Shown: one piece after another, positions 7,272 to 59,711 of the stretch
Numbering within the stretch: the stretch's first letter is position 1
How the letters are laid out: each line of letters starts with the position of its first letter
Assembly: GCA_943358395.1 (NCBI GenBank)
Contig: CALRGY010000001.1
Coordinates: 8,008-72,007 of the forward strand
Source of the DNA: Candidatus Uhrbacteria bacterium
GTDB taxonomy: Bacteria; Patescibacteriota; Patescibacteriia; UBA9934
Reading direction: 5' to 3'
Length of the DNA: 64,000 nt
Program-made: the position numbers and the translations under genes
Notes under the pieces: generated by a model
Database searches by the model: none
Told to the model about the DNA's origin: nothing
What the model saw: only the letters and a program-made list of their open reading frames with translations

Positions 7272-9184
7272 TGTTTCGCAAAAAACCACATGATCAGCGC
7301 GTATTCTTTCTCCACGATGACGGTACCATCGGGGATATTTCTCGTCATACCGATGACGCAACGTTCGACGATGCGTTGTCACAACGGTCATCGGATACGT
7401 TGTTTACTGGAACATTTGTGGGGAATTTTGCTGCACGGCGCATGCAATGGCTGGCGGGTGCGCTGGTACTTGTGCTGTTTGGAGGAGCGTTGTTTCGCAT
7501 TGGATATTGGCAGGTGATACACGGAGATACGTATCGCGCTATTGCAGACAATAACCGCACTCGCACAAAAACAATTATCCCGGATCGTGGCATTATTGCA
7601 GACAGAAACGGAGTAACACTTGCGTGGAATACTCCCGTCTTTCATGTGCTTGCGCATCGTGCTGACCTTCCAGAAGCAGGAGAAGATCGAAGAAGCTTGT
7701 TTCAAGCCATCGGTGAATCGCTCGGCATTGCATTCGAGGATTTTGAAACACGATACCAAAATTCTGGAACAGATCAAACAATCTTACTCGCTGAAACCGT
7801 TCCGTATGCTGCCGCACTTGCATTCGAGGCAGGTCATCAACCGTTTCCCGGAATCACCATGGAGCTTGCCTCAGCACGAACATACGCCACGAATGCAATG
7901 CCAACGCTTTCGCATGTATTGGGCTTTACGGGATCAATTCCAGAAACATCGTATGACGAGCTGAAATCATTAGGGTACCGCCGTTTTGACAGCATTGGTA
8001 AGCAGGGAACGGAGCAGCAATATGAATCATTGTTGCGGGGAACGCCTGGTGTGGAAATTACGGAGGTTGATTCGGAAGGAAGAGCATTGCGTACCCTGGA
8101 GAAAACAGACGTGATTCATGGCGAGAACCTTACGCTCACCATCGATGCAGGGCTCACGGCGGCTATTGAGGGCATCGTGGAACGTAAGCTCGCCAACGCA
8201 AAAGTAAAGAAGGCGGCCGTTGTGGTAAGTAATCCAAAAAATGGGGAAGTGCTCGCGGTGGTATCGTACCCAGCATACGACGTGAATCTCTTTGCTCGTG
8301 GCATTACGCAGGCAGAATATTCGGCGCTGCTTGCAGACCCGAATGCCCCACTTTTTCCACGAGCGACTCAAGGAGAATATCCATGCGGCTCCACCATGAA
8401 ACCAATCTACGCTGCTGCTGCACTCATCGAGCACATCATTACGCCGTCAACCAGCGTTCTTTCTACTGGTGGCATCTGGCTTGGGAATCGTCTTTTTCCG
8501 GATTGGCGCAGAAATGGCCATGGCTATACCAACGTGTATCACGCCATTGCGGATTCTGTGAACACGTTTTTTTACACCATCGGCGGGGGAACAGAGGCAT
8601 TTGAGGGGCTGGGGGTCGATCGTTTAATGCGTTATGCAAGTATGTTCGGCTTTGGGGCAACCAGCGGGCTTGGGTTCCCGAATGAAGCCGATGGCTTTCT
8701 TCCGTCGAAGGCATGGAAAGAGGCAACCAAAGGCGAGCCATGGTACGTCGGCGACACGTACAACGTTTCTATCGGCCAAGGCGACGTTCTCGTCACACCG
8801 CTCCAAATGAATCGTGCCACGGCAGTATTTGCAAACGGGGGAATGTTGATAACGCCGCATCTGCTGAAAGATACCCCTCAAGACGCAAAAAAGATTATTC
8901 CCGACGATGTCGCAGCAGTCATAAAAGATGCCATGCGCGAAACCGTCACAAACGGAAGCTCTGTTGCACTGAATACACTTTCGCAGCCGGTAGCAGGTAA
9001 AACAGGAACAGCGCAATGGGCAACAGGCAGAGATGAACACACTTGGTTCACCGGATTCGGTCCGTTCGATGACCCAACGCTCACCATTACCGTTGTGGTT
9101 GAAGAAGGCGGAGCAAATTATTATGCAACTCCGATAGCGGGAGAGATCTTTGAATGGTATTTCCAAAACCGTGACGTGAAATAA
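7268..9184 (+). CDS. mrdA: penicillin-binding protein 2 (elongasome transpeptidase)
   Basis: PBP dimerisation domain plus transpeptidase motifs STMKP, SVN and KTGTA; overlaps the mreD stop. Confidence 0.88.
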   Translation: MMFRKKPHDQRVFFLHDDGTIGDISRHTDDATFDDALSQRSSDTLFTGTFVGNFAARRMQWLAGALVLVLFGGALFRIGYWQVIHGDTYRAIADNNRTRTKTIIPDRGIIADRNGVTLAWNTPVFHVLAHRADLPEAGEDRRSLFQAIGESLGIAFEDFETRYQNSGTDQTILLAETVPYAAALAFEAGHQPFPGITMELASARTYATNAMPTLSHVLGFTGSIPETSYDELKSLGYRRFDSIGKQGTEQQYESLLRGTPGVEITEVDSEGRALRTLEKTDVIHGENLTLTIDAGLTAAIEGIVERKLANAKVKKAAVVVSNPKNGEVLAVVSYPAYDVNLFARGITQAEYSALLADPNAPLFPRATQGEYPCGSTMKPIYAAAALIEHIITPSTSVLSTGGIWLGNRLFPDWRRNGHGYTNVYHAIADSVNTFFYTIGGGTEAFEGLGVDRLMRYASMFGFGATSGLGFPNEADGFLPSKAWKEATKGEPWYVGDTYNVSIGQGDVLVTPLQMNRATAVFANGGMLITPHLLKDTPQDAKKIIPDDVAAVIKDAMRETVTNGSSVALNTLSQPVAGKTGTAQWATGRDEHTWFTGFGPFDDPTLTITVVVEEGGANYYATPIAGEIFEWYFQNRDVK

Positions 9185-9309
9185 TAGGACTGCAACATTT
9201 TCGACCAGTTTCGGTGCGCATCGAGCAAATTTCGTGAGACGTACTTCACGGTACGTTGAACGAATTTGCGATGATGCAAGCCGAAAATGGGCAAAATGCT
9301 GCAGTCCTA
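9185..9309. repeat. 125-bp palindromic dispersed element, copy 1
   Basis: Ends taggactgcaacatttt and aaaatgctgcagtccta; central cgtgagacgtacttcacggtacgttgaacg; starts immediately after the PBP2 stop codon. Confidence 0.85.
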
Positions 9310-14213: not shown

Positions 14214-15088
14214 AAAAACAACGTGATTTTCTTCGGCTATGGCATGCGAAAGAGCACGGAAACGGCATTCGAAAAAACCCCTTCTTTTTTAGAGCACCTC
14301 CTAAAAAGTGGCTTATCATCACCGGTATCGTTCTTGGTATAGTAGGGATCATCGGCGGCTGTATTGGCACAACCTATCTTTCATATTTTCGCATAACAGG
14401 AATAACCGTACAGGGCGCAACCATCACCCGCGCTGAAGATATTCAACAGAACGCATGGGAAACGATCACCACTCACTCGTACCCCTTTATTGCAAAAGAA
14501 AACGTCTTTCTCATCCGTGTCCAACGTATCGAACAGGAGCTCATGAAACGTTTTGCTCTTGAATCAGCGGTAGTGAGCCGTTCCGGGCGCACGTTGAATA
14601 TTGCTCTGGTTGAAAAAGTAACCACTCTTGCTCTTCGCACACAAGAAAAAACCGTGTTCCTTGATCTCTCCGGAACATATATTCGAGATGCTACTGCAGA
14701 AGAATCCCGAGCAATTGATGTTCGCATCGGCACAGCCGTTCCCACAGAAGGGGAAGTGATCGCACCATTACATGCCGAAATGCCAATCATTCTTGATACG
14801 CAAACAGATCCAGCCACATCGCTCCCCATACAAAGCGTCGAACACATTCTTGCGCTCACATCATCACTGCATAATCAGGGAATAACCGTAAAGACATATA
14901 CGCTAAACGGAGTGCATGCTCCTTTTGTTCGCCTTGATACCAATCAGCCGTACAGTCTCTTCTTTGACCTCAACCGCCCCGTCAATGAACAGATCAGCGC
15001 ACTGACCACCATCACTTCCTCACCATCCTTCATTCCTCCCGCAGAATACATCGATCTCCGCTTTGGAGCGTATGTGTATATGAAATAG
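14207..15088 (+). CDS. FtsQ/DivIB-like cell-division protein (POTRA domain)
   Basis: Short cytoplasmic N-terminus, single TM helix and a POTRA-like segment ITGITVQG...; follows alr. Confidence 0.45.
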   Translation: MLKKQRDFLRLWHAKEHGNGIRKNPFFFRAPPKKWLIITGIVLGIVGIIGGCIGTTYLSYFRITGITVQGATITRAEDIQQNAWETITTHSYPFIAKENVFLIRVQRIEQELMKRFALESAVVSRSGRTLNIALVEKVTTLALRTQEKTVFLDLSGTYIRDATAEESRAIDVRIGTAVPTEGEVIAPLHAEMPIILDTQTDPATSLPIQSVEHILALTSSLHNQGITVKTYTLNGVHAPFVRLDTNQPYSLFFDLNRPVNEQISALTTITSSPSFIPPAEYIDLRFGAYVYMK

Positions 15089-15210
15089 GACTTCCTCATT
15101 TTGTCTATTTTCGACTCAGATCATCGGAAAATCGTTCAACGTACCATAAAGTACGTCTCACGAATTTTCCTCGATCTTCATCGAAACTAGCCTAAAATGA
15201 GAAAGTCCTA
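15086..15210. repeat. 125-bp palindromic dispersed element, copy 2
   Basis: Its first three bases TAG are the stop codon of the FtsQ-like gene; its right end aaaatgagaaagtccta creates the apparent MRKSY start of the next ORF. Confidence 0.85.
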
Positions 15211-21025: not shown

Positions 21026-21116
21026 ACTGTGCCAATCTTAGCACAATTTTATACACAAGGAAACCACATTTTCTTTTGACAGTGCAAAATTAGCACTCTA
21101 TAATAGAGACTGCTAA

Positions 21117-21243
21117 TGTCGGACTTCCCCATTTTGCCCATTTTCGGCTTGCATCATCGGAAACTTCTTCAACGTACCAAGAAGTACGTCTCAGAAGATT
21201 TCCTCGACGCGCACCGAAACTGGTCGAAAATGAGAAAGTCCTA
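21117..21243. repeat. 125-bp palindromic dispersed element, copy 3 (inverted orientation)
   Basis: Ends gtcggacttccccatttt and aaaatgagaaagtccta; internal gtacgtctca; produces the artefactual N-terminal extension of the clpB ORF. Confidence 0.85.
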
Positions 21244-24588: not shown

Positions 24589-25296
24589 ATGTCTCTTGCA
24601 GAAGAAGCGATCCTCTTCGCAAAGCACAACAAAAAAGAAATCTCCCGCCGGCTGACGAGTCTGGAAGAATACCCACCCAGCGATTCACCCGTCACCATAT
24701 TCATGGCCGGTTCGCCAGGGGCAGGAAAAACAGAGTATTCAAAAAGTTTACTCGCCTACCTCATAAAAAACACAAGTGATCGACCTATTCGTATTGATAG
24801 CGACGAGCTTCGCGGGGAAATTCCCGGATACACAGGGGAAAATTCATCGGAAATGCAGGGGGCTGTCTCCATTCTCCTGAGCGAAATGTACGACCGTGCA
24901 TTAAAGAACCGACAAACCGCTATTATCGACGGGACGTTATCACATTACGGAAAGGCTAAAGAGAACATCGAACGGTCTCTCAAGCGCAATCGGCAAGTGC
25001 TTATTTTCTACATCTACCAGCATCCAGAAGTCGCATGGCAGTTTACCGTTGCACGAGAGCACATTGAGGGACGAAACATTCCAAAACGTGCGTTTATTGA
25101 AAAATTTCTCGGCTCAAAAGCAACCGTCAATCAGATTTATCGGGAATTCAGCGACCGCATAACGCTCTTCTTGGCAAGAAAAAACTTCCAAACGCACGCC
25201 ATTGAAACAGTAGAAATCGTGAGTCCTCAACATTCGGGATTGGACGCATATCTCCCGGAAACATATACTGAAGAGGAATTAGCAAAATTACTATGA
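24589..25296 (+). CDS. zeta-toxin-like P-loop kinase (Zeta_toxin/AAA_33 family)
   Basis: Walker A GSPGAGKTE with following DxD-type motifs; length and architecture resemble zeta/PezT UNAG-kinase toxins. Confidence 0.4.
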   Translation: MSLAEEAILFAKHNKKEISRRLTSLEEYPPSDSPVTIFMAGSPGAGKTEYSKSLLAYLIKNTSDRPIRIDSDELRGEIPGYTGENSSEMQGAVSILLSEMYDRALKNRQTAIIDGTLSHYGKAKENIERSLKRNRQVLIFYIYQHPEVAWQFTVAREHIEGRNIPKRAFIEKFLGSKATVNQIYREFSDRITLFLARKNFQTHAIETVEIVSPQHSGLDAYLPETYTEEELAKLL

Positions 25297-25466
25297 AAAT
25301 CCTATACTTTTTGAAAAAGTCTCTCAAAAAGAATCGTGGAGCTGCCGATTTCTTTCTTCACACTTCAAAGAAAAAGAAGATCAAAATTTTGAATGAAATC
25401 GGTCAAGAAGCAAACACAGCTCAATGGGAGTTGGTCAAACAAAGCGAAGCTCTCAAGTCAGCATAA
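25293..25466 (+). CDS. small basic ORF (57 aa) coupled to the zeta-like gene
   Basis: Its ATG overlaps the zeta-like stop (ATGA); protein MKILYFLKKSLKKNRGAADFFLH...; followed by a terminator; not in the ORF track because it is under 60 aa. Confidence 0.25.
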   Translation: MKILYFLKKSLKKNRGAADFFLHTSKKKKIKILNEIGQEANTAQWELVKQSEALKSA

Positions 25467-25474
25467 TCTCAAAA

Positions 25475-25499
25475 ATCCCCAGGAAAACCTGGGGATTTT
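25475..25499 (+). terminator. rho-independent terminator
   Basis: atccccagg-aaaa-cctggggat hairpin followed by TTTT. Confidence 0.7.
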
Positions 25500-25557
25500 G
25501 TTATAGTCCAGAATTTTCTCTCAAAACCCATTTCTCCCACTTTTCCCCATACCCCAA

Positions 25558-25623
25558 TCGACAAAACCCCATTTTTATGCTAATATTAGCGGTTCCTCTA
25601 CCTGTACGGACACATTGTCCGTA
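25558..25623 (+). promoter_or_regulatory. sigma70-like promoter (TCGACA-N17-TGcTAATAT) plus downstream 8-bp-stem palindrome, copy A
   Basis: TCGACA 25558-63, extended -10 TGcTAATAT 25578-86, hairpin tacggaca-cat-tgtccgta 25605-23; duplicated at 27226-27287. Confidence 0.6.
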
Positions 25624-25657
25624 GGCAAGAACATCACAAAAAACACTGGAGGAGCGG

Positions 25658-27098
25658 ATGCCGCTCACCCTTTTCTGGCTCATTGCCAGTTTCTTCCTTG
25701 GGTGTTCGCAAGAACCCCAAACCATCGTGTACGTCATCGCGGGTGCCCCCCCCTTCTGCGGTTATTTCGCAGGAGGAAGGAGCATTTGCCGAGGACGCAC
25801 CGGTGGAAACTCTCACCGACGCCCCCGCTGCCTATGATGGCGGCAACGGAGACGCATGCGATCTCGACGGGATCGATCCCTATGATCCCGAAAAAGTCAT
25901 CGCTTACGAGATCGTGAATCTCACCGACGAGCAGATCGCAGAGCTCGAGAGCATTGGATACTCATGGTGGGATACCTATTCGCAAATCCCAGAAGCTACT
26001 GTCAATGTCGACATCAACATAACAGTGAGTGAATGCGAAACAGTTTCCTTCACCGATGTAAACCTCGAGATCGGGCGGGAAATGGGTTATGTCGCCCCCT
26101 CTGCCAGCGGAGAAACAAGCTGGCGAGTGGACTATAACGACAGTAATTCCGCTCAAAAAATCGGTGGGTACGACAACGCGAGATGGTGGGCAGAAATCTA
26201 CAGCGGTCCGGTAGCGGAACCGTTTCTGTACCAATACGCCATCAAGTACTTACCGGAAACGCGTGGTCGACGATCTGCGTGGATGACGCTCTCAACGAAT
26301 TATTGGCCTGCGAATTTCGCGGCTGCCTATAACGCGTTTGAACCGTACAGTGAAGACATGATGGATCGGGATTACGGGAAAAACGGGTGGATCTCCATGT
26401 ACGAAGGCGACCCCGCGTACATGACCTGCCAAGTCGGAACCTGCGACGACACGCGCCTCAATGCGTGTTTGACCAAAGTTTACGACATCGAAGCCCTGGA
26501 TGCATCCGATTCACTCGTCGCAGAAACCGGTGACTGCTTCGACTGGTCCAACATCGCAGCAACATACGCTTGGGAGGTCTACTTCAGCCACTGGGACGGA
26601 TTCATGAGTCCGCACAATGGCTACGTAGAAGAATTGGGAGATTCGGCTTCGCCGGACACATCTCGATTCAGCCTCCGAATCGCAGGCGTGGATCTGGTAA
26701 ACCCCAACTGGGTAAGTGTTGAGGAGGTCACGTTTTACTCGTGGTCGACTCTCTACCCACCCTGCTGGAAGGATCAGTCTGAAGGTGGTTGCAGAGCGAT
26801 GCTCGTCGCCGATCTGCAGATCCTAATCGAAGCAGGACGAAGCGGAAAGATGGCGAGTGACCTCGACAAGGTTGCTGCATCCCGCCAAGCCCTCGGGCTC
26901 TGGTGGGAAGGGGTCGACGAGGGCTGGTACAACGACGAACGGGACTGGCTCACCGCCAGACCCGATTACGTCGAAATGGCCCTCACCGATGCTCTCGACC
27001 CCTGCAACGACTGGACTGCCGCAGGGTACAACCCCTGGGACACCGGTCTTGCAGGAGAATGTGGGGACACCGGGTTCATCGATACCGGAAAACCGTAA
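25658..27098 (+). CDS. secreted, possibly lipid-anchored W/Y/D-rich protein, frameshifted at a C8 tract (phase-OFF or sequencing error)
   Basis: ATG 25658 encodes the signal peptide MPLTLFWLIASFFLGC in frame 2. The long ORF continues in frame 0 (25683..27098). Deleting one C from the C8 run at 25746-25753 joins them: ...AGAPPSAVISQEEGAFAED... Confidence 0.55.
25746..25753 (+). repeat. C8 homopolymer tract inside the coding region
   Basis: Eight consecutive C at the signal-peptide/mature-protein junction; the same C8 tract is found at 27329-27336 upstream of the paralogue. Confidence 0.9.
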
Positions 27099-27131
27099 AA
27101 GGCTCAAAAAAAGCGAGGTAGAACAACGAAG

Positions 27132-27170
27132 CCCCCGAGCTGCTATTACGCTGCAGCCCGGGGGTTTTCT
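27132..27170 (+). terminator. rho-independent terminator after lipoprotein gene 1
   Basis: cccccgagctgc...gcagcccggggg stem followed by TTTTCT. Confidence 0.65.
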
Positions 27171-27225
27171 ATTTCAACAACCCTTTCTCCAAACTCCCCC
27201 ATTTCTCTTTTCCACACCCCCCTCG

Positions 27226-27287
27226 TCGACAAAACCCCATTTTTATGCTAATATTAACGGTTCCTCTGCCTGTACGGATGTTCCGTA
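27226..27287 (+). promoter_or_regulatory. sigma70-like promoter plus hairpin, copy B
   Basis: TCGACA 27226-31, TGcTAATAT 27247-54, hairpin tacgga-tgt-tccgta 27273-87; near-identical to 25558-25623. Confidence 0.6.
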
Positions 27288-27328
27288 AACAGACATGAAG
27301 AACCCAACAATTCGTGTCCTCGCGTATG

Positions 27329-27336
27329 CCCCCCCC
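27329..27336 (+). repeat. C8 homopolymer tract in leader/uORF of lipoprotein gene 2
   Basis: Eight C inside a 19-codon uORF (MKNPTIRVLAYAPPFCISA, 27295-27354) that ends 33 nt before the main ATG. Confidence 0.85.
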
Positions 27337-27387
27337 TTCTGCATTTCAGCATGAGGACGGAGCATTTGCCGAGGACGTGGAGAAGTC

Positions 27388-28092
27388 ATGAAGATTTTGA
27401 TTTTTTTGTTTACGCTTCTGGTCGGTGCCTCCTGCACCAACAAGGGTGCCGTCGACCGCACCCCCGACACCGAAACCTTCGACACGGGGGTGGCAGCGTC
27501 TGCCACCCCCGACGACGATGGCGACGGCTACACCGACGACGAGGACTGTGACGACACCGACCCCGCCGTCAACCCGGGAGCCACCGAGATCTGCGACAAT
27601 GTCGACAACGATTGTAACAGCCTCATCGACGATGCCGATCCCGACCTCGATCTCAGTACCGGCACCACCTGGTACGCGGACACCGACCGTGATGGGTACG
27701 GCCAGGGCACCGACCGCCCCACAAGCACCACCACCGCCTGCGACCAACCCGGCGGCTATGTCGCCGACAACACCGACTGCTACGACAACGACCCAGGAAA
27801 TTTTCCCGGGGCTACGGAAGCTTGTGACGGCATCGACAATGACTGCGATGGGGTGGTGGACGAGGGTTTCACGTATTACTACGCCACCCTCGACGAGGAT
27901 GGCGATGGCTGGGGCGGCAACGCCGACGCCGCTTCCGGTTGCCCGGGAACAAAGCCCCCGGACTACTCGGAGAACGTCGGCGACTGCGACGACACCGACC
28001 CCACCGTCAACCCAGAGGCCACCGAGATCTGTAACAACATTGACGATGACTGCGACACCCTCATCGACGAGGAGGAGATCTGCGTGCCATAG
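27388..28092 (+). CDS. secreted, possibly lipid-anchored protein with three MopE-type putative metal-binding repeats
   Basis: Signal peptide MKILIFLFTLLVGASC; three repeats of DxDGDG(Y/W)...C(D/Y)D(T/N)DP.VNP.ATE(I/A)C(D/N).(V/I)D(N/D)DC(N/D).(L/V)(I/V)D(D/E), the Pfam Cu-binding_MopE-like motif. Confidence 0.7.
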   Translation: MKILIFLFTLLVGASCTNKGAVDRTPDTETFDTGVAASATPDDDGDGYTDDEDCDDTDPAVNPGATEICDNVDNDCNSLIDDADPDLDLSTGTTWYADTDRDGYGQGTDRPTSTTTACDQPGGYVADNTDCYDNDPGNFPGATEACDGIDNDCDGVVDEGFTYYYATLDEDGDGWGGNADAASGCPGTKPPDYSENVGDCDDTDPTVNPEATEICNNIDDDCDTLIDEEEICVP

Positions 28093-28117
28093 GAGGCGGT
28101 GCGCAGCAAAAACGAAA

Positions 28118-28160
28118 CCCCCGAGCTGCAATACGGCAAGCTCGGGGGTCTTCAGTTTTA
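28118..28160. terminator. hairpin terminator, possibly bidirectional (lipoprotein 2 / ppa)
   Basis: 9-bp stem cccccgagc...gctcggggg placed between convergent genes. Confidence 0.55.
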
Positions 28161-28166
28161 CGGACA

Positions 28167-28754
28167 TTAGTCTTTGATCTTGGGCAGAATCTCTTTTTGG
28201 TATCTCTCAATACACTCTTCGATCACATTCACTGCTTCGTCCGCGTCGTAGAAGCCGAGGACTTTGCAGGTGCCTGGCTTTTTCAGGTGTTTGTAGAATT
28301 CGAAGTAGTGTGCGGTTTCTTTTGCCCAGTGCTCGCCGAGGTCTGTATATGACGTGATGTGATCAGCGCGCTTGTCGTCGGAAAGCACGCAAATTACTTT
28401 GTCGTCGGTTTCTCCCCCGTCTTCAAATTTCATGATGCCGATGACGCGGACTTCCACGAGCGATCCTGGAATAAGTGGCTCGACAACATTCGCGACGAGA
28501 ATATCCAGCATGTCGTTATCCTGATCCCACGTTTGAGGGATTAAGCCGTACACCGTTGGATACGCTAACGAAGAATACCCCACGCGGTCGAGCTTCAAGT
28601 GACCCGTTTCCGTAATAAACTCGTATTTATTAATACTGCCAGCATTGATTTCCACCAATCCGTTCAACACACGCTTTTCCTTATCTGCCCATGGAGAGAG
28701 CAAGTGCAGCAAGTTCGGCATGAATTTGTGAATCGGCACATCAAGATTTGCCAT
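28167..28754 (-). CDS. ppa: inorganic pyrophosphatase (family I)
   Basis: YPTVYGLIPQTWDQDNDMLDILV and DDKVI blocks typical of soluble PPase. Confidence 0.85.
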   Translation of the reverse strand: MANLDVPIHKFMPNLLHLLSPWADKEKRVLNGLVEINAGSINKYEFITETGHLKLDRVGYSSLAYPTVYGLIPQTWDQDNDMLDILVANVVEPLIPGSLVEVRVIGIMKFEDGGETDDKVICVLSDDKRADHITSYTDLGEHWAKETAHYFEFYKHLKKPGTCKVLGFYDADEAVNVIEECIERYQKEILPKIKD

Positions 28755-28850
28755 AGTTTTCGAAAAAAGAATGAAGAATTCCTACCAGGAATGATGCGTC
28801 CCCAACTCTTTCGTGTCAACGAGGCAGTTTTTCGATATACTGGGAGGCAT

Positions 28851-30221: not shown

Positions 30222-30240
30222 TATATAACCTATCTTATCG

Positions 30241-30364
30241 AGGACTTTCTCATTTTAGGCTAGTTTCGATGAAGATCGAGGAAAATTCGTGAGACGTACT
30301 TCATGGTACGTTGAACGATTTTCCGATGATCTGAGTCGAAAATAGACAAAATGAGGAAGGACTA
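30241..30364. repeat. 125-bp palindromic dispersed element, copy 4
   Basis: aggactttctcatttt...cgtgagacgtacttcatggtacgttgaacg...aaaatgaggaaggacta. Confidence 0.85.
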
Positions 30365-31169: not shown

Positions 31170-32918
31170 GTGTTCGCTCACGTCTATCCCCTCATAAAGC
31201 TCCCCCGCCGTTTTGGGGTATTCGATTATCGCATCCCAGAACATCTTGTCGTGCAGGTTGGCGACGTCATTCAGATTCCTTTTCGCCATCGGACGATTCT
31301 GGGCGTTGTGAAATCGATCACTGCATCATCGAACGAGCCACGAATTCTCGAGATCGCATCAGGTTCGATCGGCTTCAGCATGCCAGACATCGATCTCAAG
31401 CGCATAGAGTCCATCGCATCAGGGCTCGGGCAATCCGTCTCATCGATTCTTGCCGTTGCCTACGAAGGCCTCAGCCCCTTCCCCGCATCGGCAGAATCTT
31501 TGCATCGGCAGACCAATACCGCAACGTCATCACCAAGGATCGATAAAGAAACAATCACCACAGTGCACCATCTCCTCGAACGGCTCAAAATCGATCGCAT
31601 GATGAATGTGATGTGTGACGACGAGACATTCTGCGTGCTTGCACATGCACTGTGTAAAACAATCACCGATCAGATCCTCATTATTGTTCCCAGGGAACGT
31701 GATGCGCGAATCATTGCAAACATCCTCACCTCATTCTCCCCAATGATTCTGACGGGGAAAGTACCCCCCCGCGATCGAAATCGCATCATCCGATCCTGGA
31801 GCAAAGGCTCAATTCGATTCCTCATCAGCACACGGCAAGGAGCATTGATCACGCCCCAATCCCTGGGCGCCGTTCTCGTCTACCAATCCGGGTGCAGCGA
31901 TCATCACAGCCCTCTTCGCAACCCTCACATTCATGCCGTACGCGCCGCAGAAGCATTAGCAACATCAGCAGAATCAATCTGTATTCTTGCGGATGCTCTT
32001 CCGCCACCACACGCATCACTGCCACTGTGCGCTCATCACGATGGGGCAAACGTGCAGATCATCGACGTCATGCACAAAGGCGAACGCTCGCCATATCCCC
32101 TCATCAGTACTACGCTCCTTACCGCAATCGAAACCGCCCTCTCCGATCATCGGAAAGTGCTTCTCTCGTTTAATCGTAAGGGCGTGGCAAAGCGCATAGA
32201 ATGCAAAGCGTGTGGCCACGTTCCCTTTTGCGGAACGTGTGGCAGCTTACCAGTGGTACGCATCGATGATTTGCTCTGTGCAGCATGCGGAACGGAAATG
32301 TGGAAGCCAACAACGTGCCCAGCATGTGGCTCTCCAAAAATCGGATTAAAGTCCATTGGCGGCGCCAAAATCGCTGATGATCTCAAGAAAGCATTTCCTT
32401 ATGCAATCATCGGACATATTGAAAAAGGACGTATCGACCGCACTGCCGACATTCTCCTAGCAACAGAATATTTCTTTTCCAGCGTCATCGAACCTTTTGC
32501 TCCATGGGGGTTTGGCGTGGTAGCAGAAATTCTTGGCGACCTTGCATTTACCCCGGGCGACTATCGCGGCGCCGAAAACGCCGCCCGCCAGATTGCCCGC
32601 CTGCGCAACTATGCCAAACACGAAGGCGCGGAATGCATTATTCAAACGCTCACTCGTGACCGCATGCAATCACTCCTTGGCGCCGAATACGTCAACGCCA
32701 CAGAGCTCAACACACGAAAAACGTATTCCCTCCCACCATTTGGCGTCATCATCGAATTTGAAGGGGGCACAAAAGCGGATTTCCCCCAAGAAATCGCATC
32801 ACAAATCATAGAAAAGGACGGTCTTTTCATCGCAAAAATTGATCATCTTCTCTTTACGCATTGGCAAACCCTCTTCCCGATCATCCCGGATTCGATTAAA
32901 ATACGGATATACGAATAA
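31170..32918 (+). CDS. priA: PriA-like primosomal protein lacking recognisable helicase motifs
   Basis: PriA N-terminal 3'-DNA-binding domain (FDYRIP...VGDVIQIPFRHRTILGVV) and the Zn-ribbon CxxC...CxxC...CxxC...CxxC; no Walker A (GxGKT) or DExH motif; 582 aa. Confidence 0.55.
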   Translation: MFAHVYPLIKLPRRFGVFDYRIPEHLVVQVGDVIQIPFRHRTILGVVKSITASSNEPRILEIASGSIGFSMPDIDLKRIESIASGLGQSVSSILAVAYEGLSPFPASAESLHRQTNTATSSPRIDKETITTVHHLLERLKIDRMMNVMCDDETFCVLAHALCKTITDQILIIVPRERDARIIANILTSFSPMILTGKVPPRDRNRIIRSWSKGSIRFLISTRQGALITPQSLGAVLVYQSGCSDHHSPLRNPHIHAVRAAEALATSAESICILADALPPPHASLPLCAHHDGANVQIIDVMHKGERSPYPLISTTLLTAIETALSDHRKVLLSFNRKGVAKRIECKACGHVPFCGTCGSLPVVRIDDLLCAACGTEMWKPTTCPACGSPKIGLKSIGGAKIADDLKKAFPYAIIGHIEKGRIDRTADILLATEYFFSSVIEPFAPWGFGVVAEILGDLAFTPGDYRGAENAARQIARLRNYAKHEGAECIIQTLTRDRMQSLLGAEYVNATELNTRKTYSLPPFGVIIEFEGGTKADFPQEIASQIIEKDGLFIAKIDHLLFTHWQTLFPIIPDSIKIRIYE

Positions 32919-39164: not shown

Positions 39165-39449
39165 GGCACTATATTACGCTCTTTTTTCTACAGATACAAC
39201 GTCTTTCCAACCCAAAAGTATTGATTTCTTGGCTAATATATGCTATTATTTCCGGTTCACTTTCTTCACCGTCGTATGACCAATCTCCAACCAAGCCTCG
39301 ATTATCGTATTGCCGCCGGTATAACCAAAATCCTCGTCGCACTGCTTTTAGCATTGAACATTGCCTCAGTAATCCCTGCCCGATAAGTGCCTGCCTGAAT
39401 CTGCCCTCATCGAATCACGATCCCGAATAAAGGATCGTGATTTTTTATG

Positions 39450-39574
39450 TAGGACTTTCTCATTTTAGGCTAGTTTCGATGAAGATCGAGGAAAATTCGT
39501 GAGACGTACTTCATGGTACGTTGAACGATTTTCTGATGATCTGAGTCGAAAATAGACAAAATGAGAACGTCCTA
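39450..39574. repeat. 125-bp palindromic dispersed element, copy 5
   Basis: Near-identical to copy 4; ends exactly at the stop codon of the DUF218 gene. Confidence 0.85.
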
Positions 39575-41360: not shown

Positions 41361-41630
41361 ATGAAGAGAAGAACACTTGGAATACTGTGTTTGGTAGTTC
41401 CTATTTCACTTATTGTTTGCACACTCTCACTATACGCAATCCTCAGCTTCATTCTTGCAAGCGTCATGGGTTCATCGGGTGAGGCTTCTTCCGCCACAGT
41501 TCTTTTTGGAGGAATTGTGAAAGCTATTCTTAGCGCACTCGGATTGATAGCAGTTTTCGGTATTCCGCTCGGCATTCCTATAGGAATATATCTTCTGTGC
41601 ACACCAGAAAAATTAAAGGGAACTAAATAG
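41361..41630 (+). CDS. small membrane protein (hypothetical)
   Basis: About 90 aa with two TM segments. Confidence 0.35.
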   Translation: MKRRTLGILCLVVPISLIVCTLSLYAILSFILASVMGSSGEASSATVLFGGIVKAILSALGLIAVFGIPLGIPIGIYLLCTPEKLKGTK

Positions 41631-41633
41631 AAT

Positions 41634-41758
41634 TAGGACTTTCTCATTTTAGACCAGTTTCGATGAAGATCGAGGAAATCGTCTGAGACGTACTTCATGG
41701 TACGTTGAAGACGTTTCCGATGATCTGAGTCGAAAATGGGCAAAATGAGGAAGTCCTA
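41634..41758. repeat. 125-bp palindromic dispersed element, copy 6
   Basis: taggactttctcattttagaccag...gagacgtacttcatggtacgttgaag...gaggaagtccta. Confidence 0.85.
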
Positions 41759-45284: not shown

Positions 45285-45384
45285 AAGGAGGTACTAATTA
45301 CGTTACGCAGTGATAAAAGACAAAATCATCTGAAACAACTTCAAGATGATTGTGAATGAGGCTCGAGATTCCGTCTCAGATGAG

Positions 45385-45509
45385 TTAAACGGTTCCAGTT
45401 TAGGCGAGTTTCGATGCGCATCGAGCAAAGCTTCCGAGACGTACTTCACGGTACGTTGAGGAAGTTTGCGATGATGCAAGTCGAAAATCAACAAACTGGG
45501 GCCGTTTAA
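45385..45509. repeat. 125-bp palindromic dispersed element, copy 7 (divergent termini)
   Basis: Termini ttaaacggttccagttt and aaactggggccgtttaa around the conserved centre cgagacgtacttcacggtacgttgagg. Confidence 0.8.
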
Positions 45510-47744: not shown

Positions 47745-48600
47745 TGATGGGATGGAAGGGAATCGGAGGAAAAGTGTGTGAAAGTGAAGGGAGTCTTTGG
47801 AGGGGGTTGGGAAGAAGTGAGTCTTGGAATGGGCTGTGAACGGGGAGTCGGAGGGGGTGGGGCTTGCGTTTTCAAAAGGGGCATCCTACTAATGCAACTG
47901 AGTTGCATGTAGGGGATGGGATAGCGATTGGGATTCGATGAGGATCGATTGTGTTTATCGAGAATGATCGAGATTCTGATGGAGACGGTCGATGTGATGT
48001 TTCATAGGTTTTTTTGCGTACCATCGATCGTGTTGATCGATTTTCACCATCGGAATCTGACCATATGCTTTGAAAAAAGAGTGCTCTCGCTAACGCGAAT
48101 GATTCGCGATAAGGAAACGGTCATCGATATTCGGTGCCCCGATGAGGTACGGCGACAAGGCGTAGAATCGACGATTCATGATCGTGAGCATTACAGTCGT
48201 CTTTCGCTGATTTCACTGTTACGCCGTGTTCAGATGGAAAGTTTTTCAACCCTCAAAAGCGAGGGCGCCTTCACAAAACGCGATACCCAAGCTGCCGAAT
48301 ATACCCGTCGATAGCACCTATCGCATCACGTTCGCTTCCTAATCTCAAACCCATTCCAAAGATTCCCATCACTTCACGATCCCTCACCCTCTCCAACTCC
48401 CCCTTCCCACTTCGCTCTTCGAGCTTCGAGGGACAAGTGGCAGGAGGAGGGTTCTCATCCAACTCTCACAACCCACCCCAAAGACTCACATCACTTCCCA
48501 TTTCACGTTCCCGTCACCACATTCCCAACACCCTCCAAAGACTCACCTCACTTCCCATTCCCAACCCCTTCAAAAGATCACTCTCACGTCCCCTCATCCC
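47745..48600. repeat. 0.9-kb composite element A: G-rich tandem-repeat arm / ~400-bp non-coding core / C-rich arm
   Basis: G-arm 47750-47930 carries repeated gtgagtctttggaggggttggg units; the core begins ctaatgcaactgagttgcat and contains gcgaatgattcgc; the C-arm 48330-48600 is the inverted complement of the G-arm motifs; homologous but inverted relative to 56022-56950. Confidence 0.75.
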
Positions 48601-51976: not shown

Positions 51977-51997
51977 AGTAAAGAAATGAAAATCGTC

Positions 51998-52122
51998 TAG
52001 AAACAGATTATTTTCGACCAGTTTCGGTGCGCATCGAGGAAATGTCGTGAGACGTACTTCATGGTACGTTGAACGACTTTCCGATGATGCAAGCCGAAAA
52101 TGGGCAAAATAATCCGTTTCTA
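51998..52122. repeat. 125-bp palindromic dispersed element, copy 8
   Basis: Termini tagaaacagattatttt and aaaataatccgtttcta; the terminal cta (52120-52122) is the stop codon of pduL on the minus strand. Confidence 0.85.
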
Positions 52123-53556: not shown

Positions 53557-53681
53557 TAGGACTTCCTCATTTTGTCTATTTTCGACTCAGATCATCGGAA
53601 AATTGTTCAACGTACCAGGTAGTACGTCTCACGAATTTTCCTCGATCTTCATCGAAACTAGCCTAAAATGAGAAAGTCCTA
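53557..53681. repeat. 125-bp palindromic dispersed element, copy 9
   Basis: Near-identical to copy 2; its terminal cta (53679-53681) is the stop codon of the TrmH-like gene. Confidence 0.85.
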
Positions 53682-56021: not shown

Positions 56022-56950
56022 CCTCTCCCCCATTTATGGGGGAGTCGGAGGGGGAGAGGGAAAGTGAAGTGAGTCTTTGGAGGGGTTAAGTGGTGACAGG
56101 AATCGGAGCAGCCAGATCCTGAGGCTCCGCCGAAGGACCCCGAACGAACCTACTCGTAAACAATTCGGGGCGTGAGGGATGGGAGTCTTGGAAGGGGTTG
56201 TGAGTCCGGACGTGAACCTGGACGTGAACTCTCCTCCATTTATGGGGGAGTTAGGAGGGGGCTGAATCGGAGGGGGTCTCATTTTGAAATGACACCCCCC
56301 CATTTTCGACCTTTTTCAACAGGACACTCTGCCGCGACGTGATCGTGAAATCGGCGAAAAGTGTCTTAAATGGGGACGCACGGAAATCATCAACGGCATA
56401 CGTCATCACTTACCCTGGATCGTTATCATCGGTATCGACCAACGGTTTCTTCTTGCGAATGATTCGCATTAGCAAGAAGCCTCTTTGGAAAACCACATAG
56501 TCAAATTCCGACCTCAAAAACTGATCACCTCAATCGGCTATACACAAAAGAATCAATAAAACATCACGTCGACTGTCTTCATCGGAATCCTCCTCACATA
56601 CGATGATAATAGTCCCTTCTCATCGAATCCCGATCATCATCCCGTCCTCTACATGCAACTCAGTTGCATTAGCAGGACCCCCCTTTTTAAATCGCAACCC
56701 CCTCTGGTTCAGATCCCTCCGATTCACAACCCTTTCAAAGACTCACCTCCCGAATCGTTTACCCGTCAGCTCATTTGAGGTCCTTCCCACTGCGCTAAAG
56801 CTTCGTGGGGACAGGTCGGCGTAGCCTCAGGATCTGGGACGCTCCGATTCCTGTTCTCCCTCCAACCCCATTCAAAGATCACCCTCCTCTCACCGCCTAC
56901 CCCCAACCCCTTCAAAGACTCCCCTCACTTTCGATTCTTCCGAGCCAGCG
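56022..56950. repeat. 0.9-kb composite element B (inverted copy of element A)
   Basis: G-arm 56022-56290; C-arm 56690-56950; the two arms are inverted repeats of each other (for example caggaatcggagcagccagatcctgaggctccgcc versus the reverse complement of ggcgtagcctcaggatctgggacgctccgattcctg); the core ends atgcaactcagttgcattag, the reverse complement of the start of core A; cores are roughly 70-80% identical in opposite orientation. Confidence 0.75.
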
Positions 56951-59585: not shown

Positions 59586-59711
59586 TAAAGGTTTTTTCAT
59601 TTTGTCTCTTTTCGGCTTGCTGCGTCGCAAATTCGTTCAACGTACCGTTAAGTACGTCTCACGAACTTTGCTCCTTGCGCACCGAAAATAGCCTAAAATG
59701 AGAAAACCTCA
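59586..59711. repeat. 125-bp palindromic dispersed element, copy 10
   Basis: aggttttttcattttgtctcttttcggcttgc...cgttcaacgtaccgttaagtacgtctcacg...aaaatgagaaaacctca. Confidence 0.8.

What the first reader, a model, noticed from the sequence alone, without database searches (positions are those of the whole stretch)
27215..28092. Paralogous gene with a duplicated promoter, hairpin and C8 leader; here the C8 tract sits in a 19-codon uORF ahead of a MopE-motif metal-binding protein
27226-27287 repeats the promoter and hairpin of the upstream gene almost base for base, and 27322-27378 repeats the segment around the C8 tract (…ccccccccttctgc…ggagcatttgccgaggacg). In this copy the tract lies inside a short uORF (MKNPTIRVLAYAPPFCISA, 27295-27354) ending 33 nt before the main ATG (27388). 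The -1 frame of the leader still reads APPSAF.HEDGAFAED, homologous to the N-terminus of the mature upstream protein, so the two genes descend from a common 5' module that has been repurposed from coding to leader. The product has three tandem Cu-binding_MopE-like repeats (DxDGDG…CDDTDP.VNP.ATEICDN.DNDCD.LID). A shared cis module on two adjacent surface-protein genes suggests co-regulation or coupled switching.
Basis: partly seen in the sequence, partly recalled or inferred. Interest (0 to 1): 0.6.

Follow-up and report, generated by a model that had tools for sequence, protein, structure and literature searches.

The report
Duplicated promoter-leader on two lipoprotein genes
Two neighbouring surface-lipoprotein genes of an uncultivated bacterium carry copies of one promoter and one folded leader containing a run of eight C's; the repeat is real and the leader is conserved in a sister species, but nothing shows that the C-run switches the metal-motif gene, although it does leave the upstream gene out of frame.

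Summary
The promoter and 5' stem-loop (25558-25610 vs 27226-27278, 96%) and the C8 block (25733-25797 vs 27316-27377) are duplicated, and an independent assembly reproduces both base for base. The interpretation needs correcting. (1) The gene bodies are not paralogous: upstream is a divergent CotH-like lipoprotein, downstream a three-repeat PF11617 (MopE-motif) lipoprotein. (3) The tract sits in the 5' arm of a ~25-bp hairpin that all three known copies form. (4) A syntenic sister species has no MopE gene, yet has the same leader (93% identical, against 47-77% at four-fold sites of flanking genes) ahead of its CotH-like gene, so the leader predates the duplication and is constrained or recently exchanged. 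(5) All copies read C8 and no length variant was found. (6) At C8 the upstream gene's signal peptide is out of frame with its body; C7 or C10 would join them. Best reading: a duplicated expression front-end in a hypervariable surface-lipoprotein slot, co-regulated through identical promoters. Switching is plausible only for the upstream gene. Moderate interest.

The parts
25558..25586 (+). Promoter copy 1: -35 TCGACA (25558-63), 17-nt spacer, TG-extended -10 TAATAT (25581-86)
25601..25625 (+). 5'-proximal stem-loop of the upstream mRNA (TACGGAC-acatt-GTCCGTA plus outer pairs)
   Evidence: -10.8 kcal/mol, z -2.6; stem-loops at the same position but of other sequence in relatives
25648..25837 (+). 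SD GGAGGAG (25648-54) and ORF 25658-25837. It encodes the lipoprotein signal peptide MPLTLFWLIASFFLGC plus linker, and at C8 it runs out of frame and stops after 59 codons
25732..25797 (+). Upstream copy of the C8 module: imperfect ~25-bp hairpin with C8 (25746-25753) in the 5' arm, here inside coding sequence
   Evidence: (-37.5 kcal/mol, z -4.8)
25743..27098 (+). Body of the divergent CotH-like lipoprotein (called as P0001 from GTG 25743). It joins the signal peptide only at C7 or C10
27128..27168 (+). Terminator hairpin plus U-run after the upstream gene; its 5' side is 88% identical to the terminator after the MopE-motif gene
27178..27225 (+). Diverged copy (~65%) of the C/T-rich stretch that precedes promoter copy 1 (25510-25557)
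27226..27254 (+). Promoter copy 2: -35 TCGACA (27226-31), -10 TAATAT (27249-54)
27268..27294 (+). 5'-proximal stem-loop of the downstream mRNA (TACGGA-tgt-TCCGTA 27273-27287 plus outer pairs)
Its start lies in the unpaired A-rich spacer and its peptide is not conserved in the relative
27315..27377 (+). Leader hairpin (~25 bp) with C8 (27329-27336) in the 5' arm, opposite GAGGACGGAG in the 3' arm
   Evidence: (-29.8 kcal/mol, z -5.1)
27326..27391 (+). uORF2: ATG-CCC-CCC-CCT..., MPPPSAFQHEDGAFAEDVEKS, with stop TGA 27389-91 overlapping the main ATG (ATGA). It is conserved in the sister species
   Evidence: L004 sequence
27379..27382 (+). SD GGAG, 5 nt before the main ATG and just 3' of the hairpin. 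SDs are rare in this genome
27388..28092 (+). MopE-motif lipoprotein gene: signal peptide and lipobox MKILIFLFTLLVGASC, then three PF11617 repeats (27544-27633, 27775-27864, 27982-28071), each preceded by a DxD(G/R)DG(Y/W) motif
28113..28149 (.). Terminator hairpin between the convergent MopE-motif and pyrophosphatase genes

Best explanation
The locus lies between the lipid-desaturase/zeta-toxin genes and the pyrophosphatase gene. In this lineage that position is a hypervariable slot for a surface lipoprotein. The window's genome holds two monocistronic cassettes there in tandem. Each has the slot's promoter, a 5' stem-loop and a similar terminator. The first cassette has the ancestral layout: SD, signal peptide, linker, CotH-like body. 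The second drives a lineage-specific MopE-motif lipoprotein from a derived front-end. That front-end is a stub of a CotH-like gene's 5' end (linker codons including the C-run) that lost its SD and signal-peptide segment, probably by deletion between GCAAGAAC direct repeats, and now serves as a 126-nt leader. The stub leader is older than the duplication, because the sister species uses it for its CotH-like gene. It is under constraint. It folds into a long hairpin ending 2 nt before the main SD. It carries two overlapping uORFs. At C8 the second uORF (MPPP...) stops on the main start codon (ATGA).

How it most likely works (inferred): both genes are transcribed together from identical promoters, and the 5' stem-loop stabilises the mRNAs. 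The MopE-motif ORF is translated from its own strong SD. Ribosomes entering at the accessible uORF1 start melt the hairpin, so uORF translation modulates access rather than switching it on or off. In the leaders C8 is held fixed, as stem nucleotides and Pro codons.

The tract decides a reading frame only in the upstream gene. There C8 separates the signal peptide from the body. In the sequenced population that gene is therefore OFF, or expressed only through slippage to C7/C10 or rare +1 shifting on CCC-C.

Shown: the anatomy, the synteny, the conservation and the frames. Inferred: transcription start, uORF use, the hairpin's role and any switching.
For: - Duplication and promoter.
- Tandem layout reproduced by an independent unitig that spans gene 1 into promoter 2.
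- Three separate terminators.
- Slot variability among relatives with 85-91% identical pyrophosphatase: CotH (L027, L029-31); CotH-like with a C-terminal MopE repeat (L028, which has the same pyrophosphatase protein as L027); cobW (L033, L036, L037); a 484-aa lipoprotein plus a 122-aa gene (L038-43)..
- The upstream protein is homologous to these slot proteins: BLASTP E=2e-16 to L028; hhalign 97% probability, E=2.8e-11, to the CotH pair; Pfam CotH hits in L027 and L029.
- Sister species L004-7: same synteny, no MopE gene, and the down-type leader ahead of its CotH-like gene.
- Leader plus promoter are 93% identical (151 of 162). Four-fold sites are 47-77% identical in flanking genes and 25% in the CotH-like body.
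- Differences between the two leaders fall in the spacer, the apical loop and near the SD, not in the lower and middle stems.
- All three copies fold alike: -30, -37 and -37.5 kcal/mol, z -4.8 to -6.3.
- uORF2 with the ATGA overlap is present in both leaders.
- All outgroups have promoter, 5' stem-loop and signal peptide with no module.
- The repaired C7 product aligns its signal peptide and lipobox Cys with the homologues.
- C8 is seen in every copy and sample. The GTG-start 451-aa product (P0001), which exists only when the body is out of frame with the signal peptide (C8 or C11), was read on 4 contigs, and its cluster holds no in-frame variant.
Against: - Only three module variants exist in everything searchable, so covariation is minimal: 1 compensatory pair. 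The stem-avoidance of substitutions rests on about 8 events (my rough estimate is P~0.02).
- High leader identity could partly reflect recent recombination between the two species at this recombination-prone slot rather than purifying selection.
- The hairpin does not sequester the main SD, and no terminator follows it, so no regulatory logic is demonstrated.
- uORF2's ATG is buried in the stem.
- Most genes here lack an SD (34 of 38), so start-site use cannot be predicted.
- A fixed C8 in the leaders sits awkwardly beside an intact 451-codon body that is out of frame at the same C8. This needs recent or reversible slippage, or recoding.
- No expression data exist.
Confidence: 0.55

Rival explanations
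1. Contingency-locus reading. Both C8 tracts are hypermutable by slipped-strand mispairing. In the upstream gene the tract gives ON (C7/C10) or OFF (C8). In the MopE-motif leader the tract decides which upstream ORF is stop-start coupled to the main ORF: C7/C10 couples uORF1, C8/C11 couples uORF2, C6/C9 couples neither. Expression of both surface proteins would then vary stochastically.
For: A C8 run at the 5' end of surface-lipoprotein genes is the classic setting. These are the only C8 runs in 64 kb, while shorter G/C runs are scarce. The upstream gene is intact over 451 codons yet out of frame, as expected for a reversible OFF state. The frame table shows tract length would change uORF coupling. 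Reviews and surveys of homopolymer phase variation: PMC11868660, PMC1891110, PMC5084427.
Against: No length variation was seen. Three copies that differ by 7-22% in the aligned module and leader sequence around the tract, in two species, all read C8. Four samples of the sister species are identical. No in-frame 479/480-aa product exists in a 15-billion-protein collection. The MopE-motif ORF has its own strong SD, so uORF coupling may not matter. Assemblies report only the majority state, so this test is weak.
Confidence: 0.2
2. Neutral relic. The leader is a dead 5' stub left when a new lipoprotein cassette recombined into the slot. Only the promoter matters. The hairpin, the uORFs and C8 have no function. 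The 93% identity to the sister species reflects recent lateral exchange of the front-end.
For: The leader is clearly derived from coding sequence. The slot exchanges genes between very close strains: L027 and L028 share an identical pyrophosphatase but have different slot genes. The main SD is not occluded. The uORF1 peptide is not conserved.
Against: Substitutions and the indel avoid the stems. The upstream coding copy keeps the same fold, with UA->GG giving G-U pairs and a GC<->CG swap in the apical stem. The ATGA junction and uORF2 are retained ahead of two different genes. The other regulatory intergenic region between these genomes is similarly conserved (96%), which shows that functional non-coding DNA behaves this way here.
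Confidence: 0.15
3. Recoding or arrest-peptide device. The CCC-CCC-CC run is a programmed +1 frameshift or transcriptional-slippage site that joins signal peptide and body in the upstream gene. Alternatively, the MPPP...acidic uORF2 is a stalling or ribosome-destabilising leader peptide (EF-P- or Pro-tRNA-sensitive, like mgtP, mgtL or mgtQ) that gates translation of the coupled lipoprotein ORF.
For: The frame change needed is +1 on CCC-C, a known slippery context for tRNA-Pro (PMC7577736, PMC8324841). C8 conserved in all copies fits a decoded signal better than a mutable tract. uORF2 starts M-P-P-P, is rich in D/E and overlaps a stem-loop, as do the Salmonella mgt leader ORFs (PMC8092293).
Against: There is no hungry or stop codon at the A site, no upstream SD-like stimulator and no downstream structure once the 5' arm is inside the ribosome (sequence). 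There is no terminator or SD-sequestering alternative fold for an attenuator. G/C runs of 8 are not established transcriptional-slippage sites (my recollection). The uORF2 start is buried in the stem.
Confidence: 0.07
4. Artefact. The C8 count or the tandem layout is a sequencing or assembly error, for example a homopolymer miscall or a chimera of two strain alleles joined through the repeated promoter.
For: Metagenome-assembled genome; repeats of 31 nt or more break de Bruijn graphs exactly at the promoter; the slot differs between strains.
Against: Two assemblies agree base for base. One unitig runs from the upstream gene's 3' end through a unique spacer into the second promoter copy, so at least one genome carries two promoter copies in tandem. 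The sister species independently shows C8 in four samples.
Confidence: 0.03

Closest known systems
Simple-sequence (homopolymer) contingency loci in surface-protein genes of Neisseria, Haemophilus, Campylobacter, Bordetella and Mycoplasma (PMC11868660, PMC1891110, PMC5084427)
   Same: A G/C homopolymer of 8 lies just after the signal-peptide region of a surface lipoprotein gene. One length (C8) breaks the frame and C7/C10 restores it. The body ORF is intact despite the break.
   Different: No length polymorphism was observed in any copy or sample. The second tract lies in a 5' leader, not in a promoter spacer or the main CDS. The tract is part of a conserved hairpin stem and is identical across species.
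Variable-lipoprotein gene families with conserved 5' expression regions: Mycoplasma hyorhinis vlp, and the Borrelia hermsii vmp expression site with upstream and downstream homology sequences (recalled from memory, not checked here)
   Same: Different surface-lipoprotein bodies sit behind a near-identical promoter, leader and signal-peptide front-end, and a similar 3' flank (terminator). The locus content differs between close strains.
   Different: Only two cassettes are seen, in tandem and both with promoters. No silent archive, no recombinase and no evidence of ongoing switching were found. The conserved front-end includes a stub of former coding sequence.
uORF-containing leaders that tune translation of a downstream gene through stem-loops and Pro/acidic codons (Salmonella mgtL, mgtP, mgtQ; PMC8092293), and ATGA stop-start translational coupling
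   Same: Short ORFs overlap a stable stem-loop. One begins MPPP, is acidic, and ends in ATGA on the main start.
   Different: No alternative SD-sequestering fold or terminator is present. The main ORF has an exposed strong SD. Translation of the uORFs is untested.
5'-terminal stem-loops that stabilise bacterial mRNAs (E. coli ompA, B. subtilis aprE and ermC leaders; recalled from memory)
   Same: A stem-loop lies a few nucleotides from the predicted transcript start. It is kept at that position in every related slot gene while its sequence changes.
   Different: The transcript start is only predicted from the -10 box. No decay data exist.
PF11617 'Cu-binding_MopE' putative metal-binding motif proteins (MopE-related proteins of Myxococcota and others)
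   Same: Three motif copies at E=1.6e-28, Cys- and Asp-rich, secreted or lipid-anchored. The closest database relatives carry the same motif.
   Different: The closest homologue is only 47% identical. The match to solved MopE* covers residues 4-43 only. From memory, that is not the His/kynurenine copper site, so copper binding is not implied.

Membership tests
Homopolymer-tract phase-variable (contingency) gene | Mutable simple-sequence tract within the CDS or promoter of the gene | tested here: met
   C8 at 25746-25753 lies between signal peptide and body of the upstream gene. C8 at 27329-27336 is in the leader of the MopE-motif gene, not in its CDS or promoter spacer.
Homopolymer-tract phase-variable (contingency) gene | Alternative tract lengths give in-frame (ON) and out-of-frame (OFF) products | tested here: met
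   Upstream gene: C7 gives a 479-aa and C10 a 480-aa prolipoprotein; C8 gives a 59-aa stub. The repaired N-terminus aligns with homologues. The MopE-motif ORF's own frame is unaffected.
Homopolymer-tract phase-variable (contingency) gene | Tract length varies within or between populations | tested here: inconclusive
   All copies are C8: the window's two copies in two assemblies, and L004-L007 from four samples. No in-frame variant protein is on record. Only consensus assemblies could be examined, not reads.
Stop-start (ATGA) translationally coupled uORF | uORF stop codon overlaps the main start codon | tested here: met
   uORF2 27326-27391 has TGA 27389-91 overlapping ATG 27388-90. The same holds in L004.
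Stop-start (ATGA) translationally coupled uORF | The uORF is translated and main-ORF translation depends on it | not testable with these tools
   No expression data. The uORF2 ATG is paired in the hairpin, and the main ORF has its own SD.
Pro-codon / arrest-peptide leader (mgtP, mgtL, mgtQ-like) | Consecutive Pro (or destabilising acidic) codons in a short leader ORF | tested here: met
   MPPPSAFQHEDGAFAEDVEKS in the window and MPPPSAVIGQEDGAFAEDVEQS in L004.
Pro-codon / arrest-peptide leader (mgtP, mgtL, mgtQ-like) | Alternative RNA folds that link uORF translation to a terminator or to SD exposure | tested here: not met
   A single dominant hairpin, no U-run after it, and the SD lies outside it.
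Known structured RNA family (Rfam) | Match to a curated covariance model | tested here: not met
   Nothing at gathering score across the window, and only sub-threshold chance hits in 25000-28500, none on the leader.
PF11617 Cu-binding_MopE motif protein | Pfam model above its gathering score | tested here: met
   99 bits against a cutoff of 27, three stretches.
PF11617 Cu-binding_MopE motif protein | Metal (copper) binding | not testable with these tools
   There is only a sequence match to residues 4-43 of MopE* 2VOV.
CotH-domain protein (PF08757), for the upstream gene | Pfam model above its gathering score | tested here: not met
   No Pfam or NCBIfam hit for P0001, P0002 or P0003. Homology is only indirect: hhalign 97%, E=2.8e-11, to slot proteins that do hit CotH. 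It is therefore called 'CotH-like', not a member.
Bacterial lipoprotein | Short hydrophobic signal peptide ending in a lipobox Cys | tested here: met
   By inspection: MKILIFLFTLLVGAS-C and MPLTLFWLIASFFLG-C. Both align with the signal peptides of homologues. No dedicated predictor was available.

The most novel reading that the evidence does not exclude
The C8 hairpin leader may be a portable translational control module for surface lipoproteins in this uncultivated lineage. One mutable or slippery Pro-codon run, embedded in a conserved hairpin, would set which of two overlapping upstream ORFs is stop-start coupled to the lipoprotein ORF, giving graded control. In the paralogous coding copy the same run would join or separate signal peptide and body, giving on/off control. 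A variant of this reading is that the MPPP-acidic uORF acts as an EF-P- or Pro-tRNA-sensitive arrest peptide.
Probability: 0.12. Interest if true: 0.7.

Novelty: new member of a known kind. Interest (0 to 1): 0.4.

Why it matters
If the upstream tract does slip, this would be a candidate contingency locus in a small-genome uncultivated lineage. A search of the held paper library for Candidate Phyla Radiation together with phase variation and homopolymeric tracts found nothing. It would tie surface-protein variation to a recombination-prone slot whose content differs even between near-identical strains. The conserved leader, built from a former coding stub, shows how a new surface gene can be plugged into an existing expression front-end. 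Practically, gene callers mis-annotate this locus. The upstream gene is called without its signal peptide, and the MopE-motif ORF's product is on record only from the Logan unitig, not from the NCBI/ENA records that carry the upstream gene's product.

Tried and rejected
- Operator idea for TACGGA..TCCGTA: rejected. Related slot genes keep a stem-loop there with unrelated sequences and loop sizes.
- More copies of the module or promoter, none found. The 19-mer GGAGCATTTGCCGAGGACG in GTDB species genomes gave 8 hits and in JGI metagenomes 11 hits, all chance hits without the C-tract context. The 26-mer promoter in JGI gave 0 hits. Mismatch scans of all fetched loci found none. A covariance model of the hairpin run over the window and 13 loci found only the three known copies.
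- Known RNA family: none.
- Orthologues of the MopE-motif gene carrying the same leader: none. The best homologue is 47% identical.
- Seven look-ups of pyrophosphatase relatives showed slot variability but no further module.
- True paralogy of the two gene bodies: rejected. Only a short CDDT-type motif is shared (family D10).
- Intrinsic terminator or attenuator after the leader hairpin: none.
- SD-based prediction of uORF use: abandoned, because only 4 of 38 long ORFs have an SD.
- Organism identity: not settled. The only named relative of the pyrophosphatase is 'Candidatus Nomurabacteria' at 74%, so a Patescibacteria/CPR origin is a guess.
Full report
**Observation.** The repeat is real and at the stated coordinates.
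- 25558-25610 and 27226-27278 are 96% identical. A 27-mer from this block occurs exactly twice in the 64 kb, against none in 100 shuffles.
- The block contains a sigma70-type promoter: TCGACA, 17 nt, TG-extended TAATAT. It is followed by a short stem-loop whose stem TACGGA/TCCGTA is shared while the loop differs.
- A second block, 25733-25797 vs 27316-27377, shares TGCCCCCCCCTTCTGC and GGAGCATTTGCCGAGGACG exactly. These are the only two C8 runs in the window.
- Homology also extends about 50 nt upstream of the -35 and to the terminators (27122-46 vs 28108-32, 88%).
- Two Logan unitigs from run ERR3719152 are exact substrings of the window (25559-27255 and 27227-28524). The first links the upstream gene, its terminator and a unique spacer to the second promoter copy. 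Neither the tandem layout nor the C8 counts are therefore assembler artefacts.

**The two genes.** The downstream ORF (27388-28092) has a lipoprotein signal peptide (MKILIFLFTLLVGAS-C) and three PF11617 repeats (E=1.6e-28).
- Its only solved relative is MopE* (2VOV), matched over residues 4-43 only. From memory, the MopE* copper site lies elsewhere, so 'Cu-binding' is a label, not a finding.
- Its closest database homologue is only 47% identical.
- The upstream gene has no Pfam or NCBIfam hit. It is nevertheless homologous to the lipoproteins that occupy the same chromosomal slot in relatives: BLASTP E=2e-16 to L028, and hhalign 97% probability, E=2.8e-11, to the L027/L029 pair, which do hit CotH.
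- The two gene bodies are unrelated. Only the cis module is duplicated. Each gene has its own terminator.

**Frames around the tract.**
- In the upstream gene an SD-led ORF (25658) encodes MPLTLFWLIASFFLG-C plus linker. At C8 it leaves the frame of the body and stops after 59 codons.
- The body was called from GTG 25743 (MPPPSAVISQEEGAFAED..., P0001).
- C7 or C10 would give a 479/480-aa prolipoprotein. Its signal peptide, lipobox Cys and linker align with those of the homologues.
It encodes MPPPSAFQHEDGAFAEDVEKS, and its TGA overlaps the main ATG (ATGA).
- Simulation shows that C7/C10 would instead couple uORF1 to the ATGA, and C6/C9 would couple neither.

**Hairpin.** All three known copies of the module fold into the same imperfect ~25-bp hairpin, with the C-run in the 5' arm opposite a GGAGGA.GGAG-type 3' arm.
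- Energies are -29.8, -37.3 and -37.5 kcal/mol, with z-scores of -4.8 to -6.3.
- With three sequences there is only one double-sided compensatory pair, plus UA->GG changes that keep G-U pairs.
- The hairpin ends 2 nt before the main SD (GGAG 27379-82) and does not sequester it. No U-run follows it.
- No Rfam family matches.

**Comparative evidence.** The upstream protein has only two homologue clusters among 5.8 billion protein clusters.
- One of them (P0003, 53% aa identity) lies in a syntenic sister species (L004-L007): ClpB, lipid desaturase, zeta toxin, small ORF, [gene], pyrophosphatase, p456, LigB, PriA. Flanks are 83-91% identical at nucleotide level.
- That species has no MopE-motif gene. 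Yet its CotH-like gene is preceded by the down-type leader: the same promoter, 5' stem-loop, signal-peptide-less stub, ATG-C8, hairpin, ATGA junction and SD.
- Promoter plus leader are 93% identical (151 of 162) to the window's downstream copy. Four-fold degenerate sites are 47-77% identical in flanking genes and 25% in the CotH-like body. Another regulatory intergenic region is 96% identical.
- The differences between the two leaders lie in the single-stranded spacer, the apical loop and one base near the SD, plus one base in the outer stem of the 5' stem-loop. None lies in the lower or middle stems of the C8 hairpin. By my rough estimate P~0.02 for about 8 events.
- In the sister species uORF1 has no stop and runs in frame into the main ORF. 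Its three codon differences are all non-synonymous. uORF2 and its ATGA overlap are retained.

**The slot.** Relatives with 85-91% identical pyrophosphatase carry different content at this position:
- CotH lipoproteins (L027, L029-31);
- a CotH-like protein with a C-terminal MopE repeat (L028, which shares an identical pyrophosphatase protein with L027);
- cobW (L033, L036, L037);
- a 484-aa lipoprotein plus a 122-aa gene (L038-43).

None has the C8 module. All lipoprotein versions keep a related promoter, T(T/C)GAC(A/T)...TTTTT...TAnATT, followed by a 5' stem-loop of unrelated sequence. The stem-loop therefore looks like an RNA feature, most likely a 5' stabiliser (inference), rather than an operator. 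The simple layout of promoter, stem-loop, signal peptide and linker is ancestral.

**Origin.** The upstream gene has the ancestral layout, with the module lying in its linker-coding region. The leader form equals that 5' region minus about 80 nt holding the SD and signal peptide. GCAAGAAC direct repeats flank that segment in the upstream copy. The stub is joined at ...GTGGAG(A/C)AGTCATGAA to a complete lipoprotein ORF. It is therefore a stub of former coding sequence that now serves as a leader. It formed before the two species separated, or was exchanged between them. The window's genome then came to hold both front-end types in tandem, the second one driving a lineage-specific MopE-motif gene.

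**Is the tract a switch?** Every copy reads C8:
- the window's two copies, in two assemblies;
- four samples of the sister species;
- the GTG-start 451-aa product, which exists only when the body is out of frame with the signal peptide (C8 or C11), was read on 4 contigs, and its cluster has no in-frame variant.

This argues against free length drift, but assemblies show only the majority state. Against a fixed tract, the upstream body is intact over 451 codons while out of frame. That calls for a recent or reversible slip, or for +1 decoding on CCC-C, a known slippery context (PMC7577736, PMC8324841). I weigh these two considerations as roughly balanced for the upstream gene. For the leader tract the evidence favours a fixed element.

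**Mechanism I commit to (confidence 0.55; the steps after the anatomy are inferred).**
- Both cassettes are transcribed from identical promoters and so are co-regulated, as separate mRNAs protected by a 5' stem-loop.
- The MopE-motif ORF is translated from its own SD. That is one of only 4 SDs among 38 long ORFs in the window, and three of the four belong to exported proteins.
- The stub leader is a constrained structured element. Its uORFs, entered at the accessible uORF1 start, melt the hairpin and end on or near the main start. They modulate main-ORF translation rather than switching it.
- The upstream CotH-like gene is OFF in the sequenced population, unless it is corrected by slippage or frameshifting.
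- Rivals: a true contingency switch of both genes (0.20), a neutral relic (0.15), a recoding or arrest-peptide device (0.07), and an artefact (0.03).

**Comparison and novelty.** The nearest known kinds are homopolymer contingency loci in surface-protein genes (PMC11868660, PMC1891110, PMC5084427), variable-lipoprotein families with a conserved 5' expression region (recalled from memory), uORF/stem-loop leaders such as the Salmonella mgt leaders (PMC8092293), and 5' stabilising stem-loops.
- Membership in the contingency class is met for tract presence and for ON/OFF frames in the upstream gene. It is unproven for length variation.
- Membership in the attenuator-type leader-peptide class fails for lack of an alternative fold or terminator.
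- I file the finding as a new member of known kinds in a poorly studied lineage, with an unusual detail: a conserved coding-stub leader in which the tract is both stem and Pro codons.
- Limits: there are only three module variants, no reads, no expression data, and the organism is not identified. The only named pyrophosphatase relative is 'Candidatus Nomurabacteria' at 74%.

Noticed in passing
window 9180-9309, 15086-15210, 21119-21243, 30235-30364, 39445-39574, 41629-41758, 45380-45509, 51993-52122, 53557-53681, 59587-59711: A dispersed ~125-135-nt repeat occurs in at least 10 copies, in both orientations, at 68-98% identity. The copy at 30235-30364 fills the p456/LigB gap, which is only 9 nt in the sister species L004. 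It looks like a MITE-like insertion element.
   Followed up: partly
window, 38 long ORFs; notably 25648-25654, 27379-27382 and ~28835-28840: Only 4 of 38 long ORFs have a GGAG/GAGG Shine-Dalgarno within 20 nt of the start. Three of the four belong to exported proteins: both lipoprotein genes and the signal-peptide-bearing p456.
   Followed up: no
L027 vs L028 (and L029-L031, L033, L036-L043): The position between lipid desaturase and pyrophosphatase is a hypervariable slot. Two contigs with identical pyrophosphatase proteins carry different surface-protein genes there. In L028 a CotH-like domain and a MopE repeat are fused in one protein, whereas the window encodes them as two genes.
   Followed up: partly
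window 24589-25296 and 25293-25466: A zeta-toxin-family gene (Pfam E=1.7e-36) overlaps by ATGA a small 57-aa ORF. That ORF is poorly conserved in the sister species (42% aa, against 71% for the toxin). It could be a toxin-antitoxin-like pair in an unusual order.
   Followed up: no
window 31764-31770 and 56295-56301: These are the only other long C runs (C7). One lies inside the PriA-like ORF and one appears to be intergenic. They are useful as homopolymer error controls for read-level tract counting.
   Followed up: no
window 21116-21243: The listed ClpB ORF start (21116) lies inside a copy of the dispersed repeat, so the true ClpB start is probably further downstream.
   Followed up: no
window 47859-48071 and 56490-56702: A 213-nt inverted repeat, 74% complementary, with arms 8.4 kb apart. 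Not examined.
   Followed up: no
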